64,000 nucleotides of DNA from an uncultured Candidatus Saccharibacteria bacterium (GCA_964361595.1 CAYIAX010000002.1:7722-71721), one strand, 5' to 3'; shown: positions 25,728 to 57,678, counted from the stretch's first letter. Notes: generated from the sequence alone by a model not told the origin. Made by a program: numbers and translations.

Positions 25728-26432
25728 ATGTCGGAACATGGAACACCTCTGACGACTGTGCGCTTGCGGAAGCTATCGGGAACGGTAGTTCTCAATCTTC
25801 CCGAGATTGATTCCGAGCTGGCGCTCGACTTTTCCAATAACGCCGACGCTCTCGCGATTGTTCTTGAGCGGGCGCTGACTCGCGAGAACCTCGACGCGGC
25901 TTTGGTCGAGCTTGGGAAGAAACGACCCGAACCGAAAAAGCCCATCGAGCACGTCGGCGACTGTTTCCGCGAAACCGGCGAACTCGCGGGAACGATGATC
26001 CAAATCCCCGCCCTCCCGCGCCCGACTCTCGCGGAACTCCGGGAAAAGTTTCCCTGGATCCGAGGAGAGAACGGCATTGAGCGTGACATCTCCCCAGAGG
26101 GAGCTGTAACGCTTGTTCTGGGTACGGTGCTCCGTGAAGGAGAGCCGTCGATTAGCGGCCTGGAATACGAGCGCCGCCTCGCGCTCGTCAGTCGCCCGCT
26201 CTTCGGCTACCAGCAACTCGCCTGGCTCGTCGAGCATCAGGACGAGCACCCCGTTTTCAAGGCTCTTCTGGGACAGATTTATATCGACGGCCCGGGCCTT
26301 GTGGTGGTGATCGATGACGGCGTCCGGTACTTCCCGTCTCTTGATCAGATCGGCAAGCGGTGGAACCTGGATTTGCACTGGATCGGCCGCGGTCTGTACT
26401 CGCGCGGCCGGATCGCCTCCGGTAAGCAGTAA
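25728..26432 (+). CDS. DGR target (variable) protein, 234 aa, with the VR at its C-terminus and no signal peptide
   Basis: The C-terminal 40 aa are encoded by the VR. RBS AAGGAGA. Confidence 0.7.
   Translation: MSEHGTPLTTVRLRKLSGTVVLNLPEIDSELALDFSNNADALAIVLERALTRENLDAALVELGKKRPEPKKPIEHVGDCFRETGELAGTMIQIPALPRPTLAELREKFPWIRGENGIERDISPEGAVTLVLGTVLREGEPSISGLEYERRLALVSRPLFGYQQLAWLVEHQDEHPVFKALLGQIYIDGPGLVVVIDDGVRYFPSLDQIGKRWNLDLHWIGRGLYSRGRIASGKQ
26299..26419 (+). repeat. DGR variable repeat (VR)
   Basis: About 121 bp homologous to 26764-26884. At least 15 mismatches, every one at a TR adenine (e.g. AAC to ATC, GTC, TAC, CAC, CGC). Confidence 0.85.
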
Positions 26433-26514: not shown

Positions 26515-26763
26515 CAATCGTGATATGATCAACGCGGATAGTAGGCGATCTGTGTATGGCCAAGGTTATGCACGGCCGAATTCCCGGACAGCACCTGCCG
26601 GAACGGGAGCGGACAAGTCTTCTCCCAGTGTGCGGCGCTGGTTCGCAAATTTCTTTTGCTGCTTGGTGCGTAAAACTAAGGAATTACAGATTCCGGATAC
26701 GATTCAATCCAGAGACCTTTTTGGCGGATCGAAGGATGGTGGTTATGGCGGTTTTTCGCACAA

Positions 26764-26884
26764 TTGTGGTGGTGAACGATGACGGCAACCGGAACTTCCC
26801 GTATCTTGATCAGAACGGCAAGCGGTGGAACCTGAATTTGAACTGGATCGACAACGATCTGAACTCGAACGGCCGGATCGCCTC
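26764..26884 (+). repeat. DGR template repeat (TR). The ORF 26556-26900 is an artefact of TR/VR homology.
   Basis: Invariant, adenine-rich (AAC/AAT codons) copy of the VR. Located between the target gene and avd/RT. Confidence 0.85.
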
Positions 26885-26927
26885 TGGCCAGAAGCAATAG
26901 GAAATAAGGCAGGGCTCGGCGGAATGT

Positions 26928-27341
26928 TTATTTGGATAGCTGGCGTAGCCAGCCGCCGAGCATCTTGCCGATCTCGTCCAATGGTTCAGATAAAATAATG
27001 TATTTTTTGTTGTCGAGCGATTTTATGCGCCAGGCGATTTCCAGGAAAAACTTCGCAAGGTTCAACTTGGCCGCCGCCTGCTCTATATAGGGATATTTTT
27101 TATCCCTCGGTAGAAAAATCGCGGTATATACCGATTCGATTGTTTCAATAAACAATGAATCTATTTTATCACCCAATGTATAACGGGATATTTTCGGGAT
27201 ATGAACGGTAAATTCATGCCAAATTTCATAAGCCCGAACGAGCCGCTCGATTATCGGCAGATTGAGGTTCCCGGGGGGGGGGTTACGTGGAATGAGTTTT
27301 GCATGGATTATGAAATTCAGAAACACTTTTGAGGAAATCAT
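26928..27341 (-). CDS. avd: Avd-like accessory variability determinant (four-helix-bundle, 23S-rRNA-IVS protein family). Encoded antisense to the RT, with a C10 homopolymer in its 5' region.
   Basis: ...YTLGDKIDSLFIETIESVYTAIFLP...LNLAKFFLEIAWRIKSLDNKKYIILSEPLDEIGKMLGGWLRQL is four-helix-bundle-like. The C-run at 27274-27283 encodes NPPPG. Confidence 0.55.
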   Translation of the reverse strand: MISSKVFLNFIIHAKLIPRNPPPGNLNLPIIERLVRAYEIWHEFTVHIPKISRYTLGDKIDSLFIETIESVYTAIFLPRDKKYPYIEQAAAKLNLAKFFLEIAWRIKSLDNKKYIILSEPLDEIGKMLGGWLRQLSK

Positions 27342-28338
27342 CTCGGCTGAAAACCTGCTGATGGCCTGGCGGGAGTTCCTTTACGGCAAGCGCGGGAAGC
27401 CGGATGTGCAGGAATTCCAAATGCGGCTTATGGATAATATTTTCGCACTGCGGGACGAACTTGTAAACAAAACCTATAAACACGGCGGCTACAAGCATTT
27501 CCGGATCTCCGACCCGAAGCCGAGAGATATCCATAAGGCAGGCGTCCGCGACCGCCTGCTCCATCATGCCGTCTACCGCATTTTATACCCGCTGTTCGAC
27601 AAGACTTTCATTACCGATTCATATTCCTGCCGGTTGGGAAAAGGGACGCACCGGGCCTTAAACAAATTCCGGGCATTTGCGTATAAAGTTAGCCAAAATA
27701 ATACAAAAACCTGCTGGGTATTGAAGTGCGACATCCGCAAGTTCTTTGCAAGCATAGATCACGAAGTCCTCGCAAGAATTCTCGAGAAATATATAAAAGA
27801 CGAGGATACGATCTGGTTGCTCCAAAAAGTCATCGAAAGTTTTTCATCCACCCGCCCGGGCGTTGGCCTTCCCCTCGGCAATCTTACCTCCCAGCTGCTC
27901 GTCAATATCTATATGAATGAATTCGACCAGTTTATGAAACACGGTTCGACAAATTTCGACTCCGAGCTCGACTCGAGGAGCTTACCGCAGGCAAGAGCGA
28001 AATATTATATCCGCTATGCGGACGATTTTGTAATTCTGTCGGATAGCAGAAAATGGCTTGAACATTTAATCCCGATCATCCAAAAATTTCTGTTTGAGAA
28101 ATTAAAATTAAACCTGCATCCGAACAAAATCTCGATTAAAACCCTGGCTTCCGGAGTTGATTATCTTGGGTGGGTTCATTTTCCCGATCACCGGGTCTTG
28201 CGGACAAGCACGAAGCGGCGGATGCTGAAGCGGATTAAAACATTGCCATCGCCGGAAACAATGAATTCATATCTGGGACTTCTAAAGCATGGGAATACGC
28301 GGAAGATAAGAAAATCCAGTTTTCAGTGGTTTGTATAA
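27292..28338 (+). CDS. DGR reverse transcriptase
   Basis: RT motifs, including the DGR-type LPLGNLTSQLLVNIYMNEFD (IGxxxSQ in place of the group-II QG) and YADDFVIL. Confidence 0.85.
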   Translation: MSFAWIMKFRNTFEEIISAENLLMAWREFLYGKRGKPDVQEFQMRLMDNIFALRDELVNKTYKHGGYKHFRISDPKPRDIHKAGVRDRLLHHAVYRILYPLFDKTFITDSYSCRLGKGTHRALNKFRAFAYKVSQNNTKTCWVLKCDIRKFFASIDHEVLARILEKYIKDEDTIWLLQKVIESFSSTRPGVGLPLGNLTSQLLVNIYMNEFDQFMKHGSTNFDSELDSRSLPQARAKYYIRYADDFVILSDSRKWLEHLIPIIQKFLFEKLKLNLHPNKISIKTLASGVDYLGWVHFPDHRVLRTSTKRRMLKRIKTLPSPETMNSYLGLLKHGNTRKIRKSSFQWFV

Positions 28339-56667: not shown

Positions 56668-57678
56668 GTGATCGTAGTCCGCGCGCCTTTAAGATTGAGT
56701 TTCGTTGGGGGGGGAACAGACTTGCCCGATTTTTATACCCGCCATCCCGGACGGGTGATTTCAGCGACGATCGATAAATTCGTTTATCTTGTCATCAATC
56801 ATACGCCGCTTGTGAACCGGGTTTCAGCTCGTTATTCAACGTCAGAAACAGTCAATCATCCTTCCGAGCTTCAGCACACGCGCATCAAAGCGGCGCTCAC
56901 GGATTTGGGAATTACAAACAACATTGAAATCGGATCTTTCGCTTCGTTGCCGGCCAAAACCGGCCTGGGTTCATCCTCTAGTTTTTCCGTGGCGCTCTTA
57001 AAAGGCCTGCATGAGTTTTTGGGCAAGAACATAGATAAAAACGAGTTGGCCAATGCAGCAAGCCGTTTGGAAATCGAACTTGTGGGCGAACCGATCGGCA
57101 AGCAGGATCAATACGCCGCCGCTTTCGGCGGTTTGAATATTTTTACGTTCAATCCCGACCACAGCGTTAAAGCGGAGCCTGTTAATCTTGATTACAAAAC
57201 TAAGGCGGATTTAGAACACCATCTTTTAGTTTTCTTCATGGGCACCACGCGTCCGGCCGGCGCGGTTTTAGCCGAGCAAAAAGCCAACCTCGAGCAAAAA
57301 ATCGAAACCATGAAAGCGATGGCGGACTCGGTGCCGGAATTCCATGCGCGGTTAGCGAAAAGCGATCTGCCCGGCTTGGGCGCGATGCTTCAGGACGGTT
57401 GGGCGGCCAAGAAGAGCCTTGCCGCTTCCATCTCGAACTCGATAACGGATGAATTTTACAGCGCGGGTATGAATGCTGGCGCCTGGGGCGGCAAGGTAAA
57501 CGGCGCGGGCGGCGGCGGCTGCATTATGTTCCTCGCGCCGGCCGAGAAGCGCGAAGCGATACGCGAAGGCATGAGGCAAGTGGCCAAGCGGAACGAACTC
57601 ACTGATTTTTGCGAGATCCCTGTTAGATTTTCACAATCCGGTTCGGAAATTATCTTTAAAGATACTCACTTCAGCTAA
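56668..57678 (+). CDS. GHMP-family sugar kinase, D-glycero-alpha-D-manno-heptose-7-phosphate kinase (HddA)-like
   Basis: VVRAPLRLSFVGGGTDLPDFY and GHMP motif PAKTGLGSSSS. Confidence 0.65.
   Translation: MIVVRAPLRLSFVGGGTDLPDFYTRHPGRVISATIDKFVYLVINHTPLVNRVSARYSTSETVNHPSELQHTRIKAALTDLGITNNIEIGSFASLPAKTGLGSSSSFSVALLKGLHEFLGKNIDKNELANAASRLEIELVGEPIGKQDQYAAAFGGLNIFTFNPDHSVKAEPVNLDYKTKADLEHHLLVFFMGTTRPAGAVLAEQKANLEQKIETMKAMADSVPEFHARLAKSDLPGLGAMLQDGWAAKKSLAASISNSITDEFYSAGMNAGAWGGKVNGAGGGGCIMFLAPAEKREAIREGMRQVAKRNELTDFCEIPVRFSQSGSEIIFKDTHFS

What the first reader, a model, noticed from the sequence alone, without database searches (positions are those of the whole stretch)
26928..27341. C10 homopolymer in the 5' coding region of an antisense avd: possible slip-strand on/off switch for DGR activity
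A run of 10 G on the plus strand (27274-27283), read as C10 on the minus strand, sits within codons 19-23 (NPPPG) of the Avd-like ORF. It is also 9 nt upstream of the RT start codon on the other strand. Homopolymers of nine or more G/C are classic phase-variation tracts. A change of one C would truncate Avd, and it could alter the RT 5' leader. Either effect could toggle mutagenic homing. A divergent avd/RT arrangement is itself uncommon.
Basis: inference. Interest (0 to 1): 0.5.

Follow-up and report, generated by a model that had tools for sequence, protein, structure and literature searches.

The report
Slippery C-tract switch in DGR avd
A run of ten C's at the start of the helper gene (avd) of a targeted-hypermutation system sets that gene's reading frame; relatives keep the run but vary its length, so it looks like a random on/off switch for the hypermutation machinery.

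Summary
It is the only homopolymer of 9 or more in 64 kb.

It lies in codons 20-24 of a bona fide Avd in a complete DGR. TR and VR differ at 15 positions, all at TR adenines.

Comparative evidence:
- Of 147 related Patescibacteria (CPR) DGR loci, 123 carry poly-C (7-14, one of 30) at the same site, although Avd is only 42-62% identical.
- Six carry a dinucleotide repeat there instead.
- 771 kb of flanking DNA holds three G/C runs of 8 or more.
- The frame between an upstream start and the Avd domain is near random in repeat-bearing loci (40% in frame). It is in frame in 18/18 loci without a repeat.
- Three natural populations show length polymorphism (C9/C10, C9/C10, C7/C8/C9) in otherwise identical DNA, flipping avd between in-frame and out-of-frame.

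This window's allele (C10) is in frame. C9 or C11 gives peptides of 29 and 38 aa. Its own three assemblies all read C10.

Verdict: a conserved slipped-strand (contingency) tract that very probably gates Avd, and so DGR activity. Switching rates and the effect on retrohoming are inferred. I found no prior description.

The parts
27273..27282 (-). C10 homopolymer (G10 on the + strand). It is the frame-setting simple-sequence repeat in codons 20-24 (N-P-P-P-G) of avd. It also lies in the 5' leader of the RT gene on the other strand.
   Evidence: sequence; only run of 9 or more in 64 kb. (homologous poly-C in 123 of 147 related loci). (C9 or C11 truncates the product).
26928..27341 (-). avd ORF (137 aa, coordinates include the stop codon), read from ATG 27341-27339. 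The GTG at 27326-27324 aligns with the start codon conserved in relatives (MxQLNFH...).
   Evidence: Pfam bAvd; homologues share the N-terminal leader; alignment of leaders.
27261..27341 (-). N-terminal leader of Avd (residues 1-27). It holds a short, low-confidence helix and a disordered linker encoded by the tract. Its first 32 nt overlap the RT coding start head-to-head.
   Evidence: pLDDT 51-59; residues 18-24 below 50. (leader conserved in relatives).
26931..27260 (-). Avd four-helix-bundle domain (residues 28-137).
   Evidence: helices 28-45, 50-75, 83-105, 111-136; pLDDT above 88. (Foldseek matches to Bordetella phage Avd 4dwl and 8ub7 chains B-E, TM 0.81-0.85 normalised to target).
27310..28338 (+). 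DGR reverse transcriptase, 342 aa from ATG 27310. An alternative in-frame ATG lies at 27292, 9 nt after the tract. The tract is in the RT 5' leader, not in RT coding sequence.
   Evidence: RVT_1, E 5.6e-24. (best solved relative is Bordetella bRT 8ub7_A, E 2.3e-39; query residue 2 aligns to bRT residue 4). (the RT frame is not preferentially open through the tract in relatives).
26764..26884 (+). Template repeat (TR), inside ORF 26556-26900.
   Evidence: 121-nt match to the VR with 15 mismatches, every one at a TR adenine.
26299..26419 (+). Variable repeat (VR) at the 3' end of the target gene.
   Evidence: (the only TR-like copy in the window).
25728..26432 (+). DGR target gene (234 aa, no Pfam match).
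27439..27467 (-). Weak sigma-70-like promoter match (TTTACA-17-GAAAAT with TG) inside the RT coding region, pointing toward avd. It is only a candidate avd promoter.
   Evidence: one site found against 1.4 expected in shuffles, so it is not significant on its own.

Best explanation
The C10 tract is a conserved hypermutable simple-sequence repeat (a contingency tract) in the 5' coding leader of avd, in a Patescibacteria (CPR) DGR with TR-(avd)-RT architecture.

Proposed mechanism:
- Translation starts upstream of the tract, at ATG 27341 or GTG 27326. It reads through the tract as a disordered Pro linker and continues into the Avd four-helix bundle.
- Slipped-strand mispairing during DNA replication adds or removes a C. 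Each change of one C moves the Avd domain out of frame or back in.
- Because Avd is the obligatory partner of the DGR reverse transcriptase in the Bordetella phage model, an out-of-frame allele should silence adenine-mutagenic retrohoming. An in-frame allele should permit it.
- The allele in this window (C10) is in frame, i.e. ON.

Shown here:
- the tract, its coding position and the in-silico truncation;
- its conservation as DNA;
- its replacement by other repeat types in some relatives;
- near-random frame states among relatives;
- length polymorphism in identical backgrounds.

Inferred:
- that switching is frequent and reversible;
- that out-of-frame alleles make no Avd;
- that DGR activity follows the tract state.
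For: 1. **Anatomy.** G10 lies at 27273-27282, in codons 20-24 of a Pfam-supported Avd. C9 gives 29 aa, C11 gives 38 aa and C10 gives 137 aa. The next canonical in-frame start is codon 56.
2. **The element is a real DGR.** TR and VR differ at 15 positions, all at TR adenines. The RT's best solved relative is bRT. The Avd fold is confirmed.
3. **Conservation as DNA.** Of 147 related loci from GTDB genomes and metagenomes, 123 have poly-C of 7 or more at the homologous site (mode 9-10, range 7-14, one of 30). The proteins are only 42-62% identical. The 771 kb of flanks holds 3 G/C runs of 8 or more, about a 2700-fold enrichment.
4. **Other repeat types at the same site.** (CA)n occurs in L096, L141 and L143, and (GA)n in L068 and L075. 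Flanking bases carry 0.6 bit or less. The repeat property is what is conserved, not a motif.
5. **Frame states.** Repeat-bearing loci are in frame with an upstream start in 52 of 129 cases (40%; against 1/3, p = 0.09). Repeat-less loci are in frame in 18 of 18 (Fisher p = 4e-7).
6. **Start codon position.** The first codon of the domain is never ATG. TTG is equally frequent there in ON, not-ON and repeat-less loci (29-32%), so out-of-frame loci have no compensating start.
7. **Direct polymorphism.**
   - L017 (C10, out of frame) and L110 (C9, in frame) differ by that single base in 3988 nt.
   - Rifle Giovannonibacteria: C10 in 4 contigs (135-aa Avd) and C9 in 3 contigs, with identical flanks. 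Linked SNPs occur in all four combinations with tract length, which suggests recurrent change.
   - A third population has C7 x3, C8 x4 and C9 x1. The six core contigs differ only by tract length plus one SNP in about 530 nt.
8. **Not assembly noise.** Four other populations give one reproducible length across 3-9 independent assemblies each.
9. **Control.** Of 77 viral-contig Avd relatives, one has the tract. This set includes 13 of 14 with the same divergent layout that lack it.
10. **Literature.** CPR DGRs (clade 2) show lower-than-average activity (PMC8144416).
Against: - The window's own population shows no variation. All three assemblies read C10, but they are low coverage (3-5x), come from one site and are not fully independent.
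- Consensus tract length is stable across many samples in four other populations, one of them out of frame with no canonical start. So switching is not fast enough to move the consensus, or selection holds it.
- An 'out-of-frame' population (Ryanbacteria, C10, with only a TTG two codons before the tract in frame) still shows differences between samples clustered at the VR end of its target gene. A minority of ON cells could produce this, but so could expression despite the frame.
- No reads, transcripts or proteins were available, so switching rate, reversibility and the Avd-minus phenotype are unmeasured.
- The tract is always C on the avd strand. Common descent explains this, but it could hint at a strand-specific role.
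Confidence: 0.7

Rival explanations
1. RNA-level recoding. The tract is a slippery site where RNA polymerase (reiterative transcription) or the ribosome (tRNA-Pro slipping on CCC-C, stalling on PPP) changes frame. Some Avd is then made whatever the DNA-encoded frame. On this reading the tract tunes Avd to a low level rather than switching it.
For: - Frame states among relatives are near random, yet the Avd domain stays intact in all of them.
- Some populations keep an out-of-frame consensus across many samples.
- One nominally out-of-frame population still shows variation clustered at the VR end of its target gene.
- A 10-nt homopolymer read as CCC in every frame is an ideal slippery sequence (established knowledge on transcriptional slippage and tRNA-Pro frameshifting, from memory).
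Against: - DNA-level length changes are directly observed in three populations.
- There is no fixed shift direction. In the first 62 tract-bearing loci examined, offsets 0, +1 and +2 occur 15, 24 and 23 times.
- No conserved stimulatory element flanks the tract.
- The same site carries (CA)n or (GA)n in some loci. Dinucleotide repeats are classic substrates for DNA slippage, not for frameshifting.
- Loci that lost the repeat are always in frame, so the frame matters.
- This rival can coexist with the main explanation.
Confidence: 0.17
2. RT-side element. The G-run acts on the other strand, as a variable spacer in the RT promoter or as a G-rich element in the RT 5' leader. Its position in the avd leader is incidental.
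For: - The tract lies 4-44 nt (median 19) upstream of the conserved RT ATG in relatives. In the window it is 9 or 27 nt upstream.
- Repeats in the promoter regions of Neisseria porA/opc, Haemophilus hif and Bordetella fim genes are known precedents (from memory).
- The run is always G on the RT strand.
Against: - No promoter-like hexamer pair spans the tract in the window.
- No conserved hexamers flank it in 123 loci (0.6 bit or less).
- The distance to the RT start is not fixed.
- (CA)n and (GA)n substitutes share nothing with a G-run except being repeats.
- The 18 of 18 in-frame result in repeat-less loci shows the region is under coding constraint for avd.
Confidence: 0.08
3. No function. 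The run is a codon-usage accident (three CCC proline codons), or its apparent variability is a sequencing or assembly error at a homopolymer.
For: - Illumina reads are error-prone at long G/C homopolymers.
- The window's own copies do not vary.
- Gene callers often truncate avd even when the tract is in frame (P0003).
Against: - The site is about 2700-fold enriched for G/C runs over flanking DNA, in 123 of 147 loci.
- Proline is mostly not kept in repeat-less relatives. In one (Kuenenbacteria) it is encoded by mixed codons, CCA CCA CCC CCG.
- Each length variant is reproduced in 3-5 independent assemblies from different samples and assemblers.
- Invariant populations give the same length in up to 9 assemblies.
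- A closed genome (CP066687.1) carries G10 in frame.
Confidence: 0.03

Closest known systems
Poly-G/C contingency loci of Campylobacter jejuni, Neisseria and Haemophilus (phase variation by slipped-strand mispairing within the reading frame; e.g. PMC8355987, PMC5084427)
   Same: - A G/C homopolymer of 8-11 nt lies near the 5' end of the ORF.
- A change of one base truncates the product.
- Close relatives carry both ON and OFF lengths.
- The tract encodes a tolerant linker.
   Different: - The host is an uncultivated groundwater Patescibacterium, not a host-adapted pathogen.
- The gated gene is not a surface or modification gene. It is the accessory protein of a retroelement that itself generates diversity.
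- The tract is conserved across a whole clade of elements, and the neighbouring DNA has almost no other long G/C runs (3 of 8 or more in 771 kb of flanks; none of 9 or more elsewhere in the window).
- Switching rates are unknown.
Bordetella phage BPP-1 DGR (avd-TR-brt; bRT-Avd complex, PDB 4dwl and 8ub7)
   Same: - An RT related to bRT (E 2e-39).
- An Avd four-helix bundle.
- A TR/VR pair with adenine-specific differences.
   Different: - avd is inverted between TR and RT, and its 5' end overlaps the RT start head-to-head (architecture B3, typical of CPR; PMC5758913).
- Avd carries a 27-residue N-terminal leader that contains the repeat.
- No such tract occurs in 76 of 77 viral-contig Avd relatives.
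Phasevarions (phase-variable DNA methyltransferase genes with simple repeats) and repeat-controlled mutator states such as repeats in mismatch-repair genes (both recalled from memory, not checked here)
   Same: A stochastic repeat switch sits upstream of a system with wide downstream consequences, giving second-order control of variability.
   Different: Here the downstream system is targeted hypermutation of one ligand-binding gene. It is not genome-wide methylation or a change in the global mutation rate.
Programmed transcriptional slippage or ribosomal frameshift sites (dnaX, IS elements, endosymbiont poly-A tracts; from memory)
   Same: A long homopolymer lies between an upstream start and a downstream functional ORF that is often in another frame.
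   Different: - No fixed frame relation.
- No conserved stimulator.
- The DNA length itself varies.
- Dinucleotide repeats can substitute.

Membership tests
Diversity-generating retroelement (DGR) | Reverse transcriptase of the DGR type | tested here: met
   RVT_1, E 5.6e-24. The best solved relative is Bordetella bRT 8ub7_A, E 2.3e-39, over residues 2-310.
Diversity-generating retroelement (DGR) | TR/VR repeat pair whose differences fall at template adenines | tested here: met
   TR 26764-26884 against VR 26299-26419: 121 nt and 15 mismatches, all at TR adenines.
Diversity-generating retroelement (DGR) | Avd accessory protein (four-helix bundle) | tested here: met
   Pfam bAvd at 43 bits against a cut-off of 40. 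The AF2 model has four confident helices. Foldseek matches 4dwl and 8ub7 chains B-E, TM 0.81-0.85 normalised to target.
Diversity-generating retroelement (DGR) | Ongoing mutagenic retrohoming | not testable with these tools
   The three assemblies of this population are identical. No reads were available.
CPR-type DGR, architecture B3, TR-(avd)-RT (Wu et al. 2018, PMC5758913) | avd on the opposite strand, between TR and RT | tested here: met
   for the window. The same layout occurs in nearly all related loci in which an RT was found. B3 accounts for 90% of CPR DGRs.
Simple-sequence-repeat contingency (phase-variable) locus | Homopolymer of about 8 or more within the 5' part of the ORF, well above chance | tested here: met
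   C10 in codons 20-24. It is the only run of 9 or more in 64 kb, against about 0.07 expected.
Simple-sequence-repeat contingency (phase-variable) locus | A one-unit length change shifts the frame and truncates the product | tested here: met
   C9 gives 29 aa and C11 gives 38 aa. The next in-frame canonical start is codon 56.
Simple-sequence-repeat contingency (phase-variable) locus | Tract-length polymorphism in otherwise identical sequence (related populations) | tested here: met
   L017 against L110. Giovannonibacteria C9 against C10. A third population with C7, C8 and C9.
Simple-sequence-repeat contingency (phase-variable) locus | Tract-length polymorphism in this window's own population | tested here: inconclusive
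   Only three low-coverage assemblies from one site exist, and all read C10.
Simple-sequence-repeat contingency (phase-variable) locus | Both ON and OFF alleles among homologues, with the ORF otherwise intact | tested here: met
   52 loci are in frame and 77 are not, out of 129 repeat-bearing loci. All 18 repeat-less loci are in frame.
Simple-sequence-repeat contingency (phase-variable) locus | Measured high-frequency, reversible switching with a phenotype | not testable with these tools
   This needs reads, cultures or reporters. The four-gamete pattern only suggests recurrent change.
Programmed transcriptional slippage / ribosomal frameshift site | Fixed frame relation between the upstream and downstream ORFs across homologues | tested here: not met
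   Offsets 0, +1 and +2 occur 15, 24 and 23 times in the GTDB set. States are mixed across all loci.
Programmed transcriptional slippage / ribosomal frameshift site | Conserved stimulatory element next to the slippery run | tested here: not met
   Flanking positions carry 0.6 bit or less. Rfam finds nothing.
Phase-variable promoter spacer | Repeat placed between -35 and -10 hexamers, or at a fixed distance from them | tested here: not met
   No promoter-like pair spans the tract. Flanks are not conserved. The distance to the RT ATG ranges from 4 to 44 nt. CPR promoter rules are unknown, so this is a weak negative.

The most novel reading that the evidence does not exclude
A whole clade of Patescibacteria (CPR) DGRs places its hypermutation machinery under a second, stochastic mutational switch. 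A conserved hypermutable repeat in avd keeps most natural populations in a DGR-OFF state and lets subpopulations flip ON.

If true, this would be:
- the first phase-variation system described in CPR bacteria;
- a built-in regulator of DGR activity;
- an explanation for the low apparent activity of CPR DGRs;
- an explanation for the many 'truncated' Avd annotations in databases.
Probability: 0.6. Interest if true: 0.82.

Novelty: new variant of a known kind. Interest (0 to 1): 0.74.

Why it matters
How DGRs are switched on and off is largely unknown outside the Bordetella phage model, and CPR bacteria carry a large share of known DGRs.

A conserved slippery repeat that sets the avd reading frame gives a concrete, testable regulator. 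Tract length can be read from metagenomic reads and correlated with VR diversification.

If the link holds, it means:
- Targeted hypermutation in these minimal-genome symbionts is bet-hedged at the population level. Most cells are stable and a few diversify.
- Phase variation extends to a huge uncultivated lineage.
- The lower activity reported for CPR DGRs has an explanation.

There is also a practical annotation point. Out-of-frame avd alleles are being called as N-terminally truncated or missing genes, so DGR surveys may misjudge which CPR elements are complete.

Tried and rejected
1. **Avd starting downstream of the tract.** Rejected. The domain-start codon is Leu in most loci and never ATG. 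TTG there is not enriched in out-of-frame loci. All repeat-less loci are in frame with the upstream ATG.
2. **The tract as RT coding sequence (poly-Gly extension).** Rejected. Once the conserved RT codons are excluded, the RT frame is no more open through the tract than the other frames (46 of 73, against 52 and 31). An earlier biased count had suggested otherwise.
3. **The tract as a Shine-Dalgarno or G-rich motif for RT.** Unlikely. The distance is variable (4-44 nt), and (CA)n or (GA)n can replace it.
4. **PPP as a needed protein motif.** Rejected. Repeat-less relatives mostly lack Pro there, and the segment is predicted to be disordered.
5. **A known RNA family at the site.** None found.
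6. **Variation in the window's own population.** Looked up via Avd, RT and RNase Y. Only the same two long contigs and one 1-kb contig exist, all C10.
7. **Length differences within 90% protein clusters as evidence of OFF states.** Not reliable alone, because gene callers truncate avd even when it is in frame (P0003). I therefore fetched the DNA.
8. **Profile search of Avd against PDB sequences.** Found nothing. Fold comparison was needed.
9. **Paul et al. 2017 (PMC5436926).** Could not be read.

Full report
**1. The observation**

It is the only homopolymer of 9 or more in the 64-kb window. About 0.07 such G-runs are expected from composition.

On the - strand it reads AAC CCC CCC CCC GGG. 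These are residues N20-P21-P22-P23-G24 of the 137-aa ORF 26928-27341(-).

Two ENA contigs from the same aquifer well (Hainich H43, replicates R1 and R3) are 100% identical to the window and also read C10.

**2. What surrounds it**

The ORF is an Avd:
- Pfam bAvd scores above its gathering threshold over residues 32-134.
- An AlphaFold model built on 40 homologues gives four confident helices (28-45, 50-75, 83-105, 111-136).
- That model matches the Bordetella phage Avd structures 4dwl and 8ub7 chains B-E, with TM 0.81-0.85 normalised to target.
- Residues 1-27 are modelled with low confidence. The tract-encoded residues 18-24 fall below pLDDT 50.

On the other strand an RT ORF starts at ATG 27310 (MKFRNTFEEII...) or at ATG 27292. 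Its best solved relative is Bordetella bRT (8ub7_A, E 2.3e-39), with query residue 2 aligned to bRT residue 4.

Upstream on the + strand lie:
- a 234-aa target gene (25728-26432), with a VR at 26299-26419;
- a TR at 26764-26884.

TR and VR differ at 15 of 121 positions, every one at a TR adenine.

So this is a complete DGR with the layout target-TR-(avd)-RT. That layout is architecture B3 of Wu et al., which makes up 90% of CPR DGRs (PMC5758913). Homologues are all from Patescibacteria (CPR) metagenome-assembled genomes. In nearly all of the 160 related loci in which an RT was found, the RT sits divergently and immediately upstream of avd. The divergent arrangement is therefore the norm for this clade, not a rarity.

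The 5' ends of the two genes overlap head-to-head, by 32 nt in the window. In relatives, the conserved avd start (MxQLNFH...) is antisense to RT codons 1-7 (MKIQLxH...).

**3. The tract is a conserved DNA element**

I anchored 147 related loci on the first residue of the Avd domain. They comprise 80 from GTDB species representatives and 80 from metagenome contigs, minus those cut by contig ends, plus the window itself.

| Feature at the homologous site | Loci |
|---|---|
| Poly-C of 7 or more on the avd strand | 123 |
| Dinucleotide repeat instead | 6 |
| No repeat | 18 |

- The poly-C lengths are C7 x4, C8 x18, C9 x35, C10 x41, C11 x18, C12 x3, C13 x2, C14 x1 and C30 x1.
- The dinucleotide repeats are (CA)n in L096, L141 and L143, (GA)n in L068 and L075, and a marginal (CT) run in L033.

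The Avd proteins are only 42-62% identical, so three CCC codons are not being kept by chance. The 771 kb of flanking DNA in the same loci holds only three G/C runs of 8 or more, an enrichment of about 2700-fold.

Positions flanking the tract carry at most 0.6 bit of information, and Rfam finds nothing. The conserved feature is therefore 'a simple repeat here'. It is not a sequence motif and not a proline requirement:
- Repeat-less relatives mostly lack Pro at this position.
- One relative (Kuenenbacteria) keeps PPPP with mixed codons, CCA CCA CCC CCG.

As a control, 77 more distant Avd relatives on viral contigs contain the tract once. Among them, 13 of the 14 with the same divergent layout lack it.

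**4. The tract is coding, and it sets the frame**

The first codon of the Avd domain (L28 in the window) is Leu in most loci and never ATG. TTG is equally frequent there in in-frame, not-in-frame and repeat-less loci (29-32%). Translation must therefore begin upstream and cross the tract.

- All 18 repeat-less loci have an upstream ATG in frame with the domain.
- Among repeat-bearing loci only 52 of 129 (40%) do. A further 31 have only a Leu-type TTG or GTG at the domain start, and 46 have no canonical start at all.
- The contrast is strong (Fisher p = 4e-7). The 40% does not differ from the 1/3 expected if frame is random (p = 0.09).
- In the first 62 tract-bearing loci examined (61 GTDB loci plus the window), the upstream ATG sits at offsets 0, +1 and +2 in 15, 24 and 23 loci. 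No single programmed shift would rescue them.

In the window, C10 is in frame with both ATG 27341 and GTG 27326, the latter being the homologue of the conserved start.

| Tract length in the window | Product |
|---|---|
| C8 | 37 aa |
| C9 | 29 aa |
| C10 | 137 aa (full Avd) |
| C11 | 38 aa |
| C12 | 30 aa |

The next canonical in-frame start is codon 56, which would delete helix 1.

**5. The length really varies at the DNA level**

Three populations are polymorphic:
- **Hainich H43.** MAG contig L017 (C10, out of frame) and ENA contig L110 (coverage 28, C9, in frame) differ by that single C in 3988 aligned bases.
- **Rifle Giovannonibacteria.** Four contigs carry C10 and a 135-aa Avd (MSEFNSSHYAPPPRILSVI...). 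Three carry C9, and the gene caller falls back to a 120-aa product. The flanks are identical. A cluster of linked SNPs about 420 nt away occurs in all four combinations with tract length, which suggests recurrent length change rather than two clonal lineages.
- **ERZ272933xx series.** Contigs that share an identical Avd core carry C7 (x3), C8 (x4, plus one with a 3-nt insertion) and C9 (x1). Only C9 is in frame, and it corresponds to the 129-aa proteins P0077 and P0262. Over about 530 nt the six core contigs differ only by the tract and one SNP.

Other populations give one reproducible consensus length:

| Population | Assemblies | Length | State |
|---|---|---|---|
| Ryanbacteria | 9 | C10 | out of frame with the upstream GTG; a TTG two codons before the tract is in frame |
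| Giovannonibacteria lineage with closed genome CP066687.1 | 6 | G10 | in frame |
| Jorgensenbacteria | 3 | G9 | out of frame, no canonical start |
| Population of RT P0129 | 9 | G9 | only a TTG at the domain start is in frame |

This reproducibility argues against assembly noise as the source of the frame states. It also shows that the population consensus is not in constant flux.

**6. Mechanism**

The best-supported reading is a classic slipped-strand contingency tract in the 5' coding leader of avd. Replication slippage changes the tract by one unit, and the Avd domain moves into or out of frame.

Avd is required with bRT for cDNA synthesis in the Bordetella phage system (PMC6182149 and the cryo-EM study). 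DGR mutagenic retrohoming should therefore follow the tract state. That last step is inference.

Two further points fit this reading:
- Roux et al. report that the Patescibacteria DGR clade shows lower-than-average activity (PMC8144416).
- Loci that have lost the repeat are always in frame ('locked ON').

The window's allele is ON.

**7. Rivals**

- **RNA-level slippage or tRNA-Pro frameshifting on the run.** This could make the DNA frame partly irrelevant. It would explain stable out-of-frame populations, and the clustered variation at the VR end of the target gene in the Ryanbacteria population. It is not excluded and may coexist with DNA slippage. Against it stand the observed DNA polymorphism, the lack of a fixed shift or stimulator, and the dinucleotide substitutes (confidence about 0.17).
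- **An RT-side role (promoter spacer or leader element).** This lacks support. No hexamer pair spans the tract, no flanks are conserved, and the distance to the RT ATG varies from 4 to 44 nt. The RT frame is not preferentially open through the tract (about 0.08).
- **Accident or artefact.** Very unlikely (about 0.03).

**8. Comparison with known systems, and novelty**

The tract works like the poly-G/C contingency loci of Campylobacter, Neisseria and Haemophilus. It meets their sequence-level criteria. Switching rate and phenotype could not be tested.

It is not a programmed frameshift site, because the criteria of a fixed frame relation and a stimulator are not met. It does not fit a promoter-spacer repeat.

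What is new is the target and the scale:
- The switch gates the accessory protein of a diversity-generating retroelement.
- It is conserved across a large CPR clade.

Full-text searches found no paper linking DGR or Avd with homopolymers. The only paper that mentions both Patescibacteria and phase variation is an unrelated study of archaeal DNA methylation. The key CPR-DGR paper (Paul et al. 2017) could not be read, so prior mention there cannot be excluded.

I rate it a new variant of a known kind.

**9. Verdict**

- Observation: confirmed, with coordinates one base off.
- Interest: 0.74.

Noticed in passing
window 27310-27341; related loci L003-L162 at the avd/RT junction: avd and RT overlap head-to-head at their 5' coding ends, by 32 nt in the window. 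In relatives the avd start peptide MxQLNFH is encoded antisense to RT codons 1-7 (MKIQLxH), around a palindromic CAATTG. The two promoters must therefore each lie inside the other gene, and the avd mRNA is antisense to any TR-to-RT read-through transcript.
   Followed up: partly
L096, L141, L143 ((CA)n); L068, L075 ((GA)n); L114 (C30); L086 (C14): At the site of the poly-C tract, some relatives carry long dinucleotide repeats, up to about 18 CA units. One carries a 30-nt C run.
   Followed up: partly
L174-L183 (Kuenenbacteria, Rifle), about 15-30 nt into avd: The proline stretch is kept (ITPPPPT) but encoded as ACC CCA CCA CCC CCG. This breaks the homopolymer and looks like a 'locked-ON' derivative. 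It is identical in 10 assemblies.
   Followed up: partly
L202-L208, positions 843-869 (just downstream of the avd stop codon): A tight cluster of five C/T differences separates two haplotypes in the Rifle Giovannonibacteria population. It lies in the avd-to-TR spacer and recombines freely with tract length. Its meaning is unknown.
   Followed up: no
L214, L216 (and protein P0265): In some contigs of one population the sequence upstream of the avd leader is replaced. The junction lies inside the ...GAATTGGATTTTCAT motif, so the RT start is missing there. This is either a rearrangement or an assembly breakpoint at the avd/RT overlap.
   Followed up: no
window 26556-26900 (+): The TR lies inside a 114-aa ORF whose C-terminus parallels that of the target protein (…GKRWNLNLNWIDNDLNSNGRIASGQKQ against …GKRWNLDLHWIGRGLYSRGRIASGKQ). 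I did not assess whether it is translated.
   Followed up: no
window 56707-56714 (+): The second-longest G run (G8) encodes the glycines of a conserved-looking …SFVGGGTDLPDFY… motif near the N-terminus of a 350-codon open reading stretch. This resembles a sugar-kinase (GHMP-like) motif, from memory. It is probably ordinary codon use, but it is the only other G/C run of 8 or more in the window.
   Followed up: no
Protein clusters of P0077, P0084, P0056, P0096: Public protein sets hold many N-terminally truncated Avd calls (70-107 aa) beside full-length ones (124-135 aa) at 90% identity or more. Some reflect out-of-frame tracts. Others are gene callers avoiding the overlap with RT, as with P0003 from an in-frame C10 contig. 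Avd annotation in CPR DGRs is therefore unreliable.
   Followed up: partly
L220 and L219-L232 (IMG/VR contigs): Fourteen 'viral' contigs carry the divergent avd/RT layout typical of CPR, and only one (L220, C8) has the tract. I did not examine whether these are CPR phages or misbinned CPR DNA.
   Followed up: no
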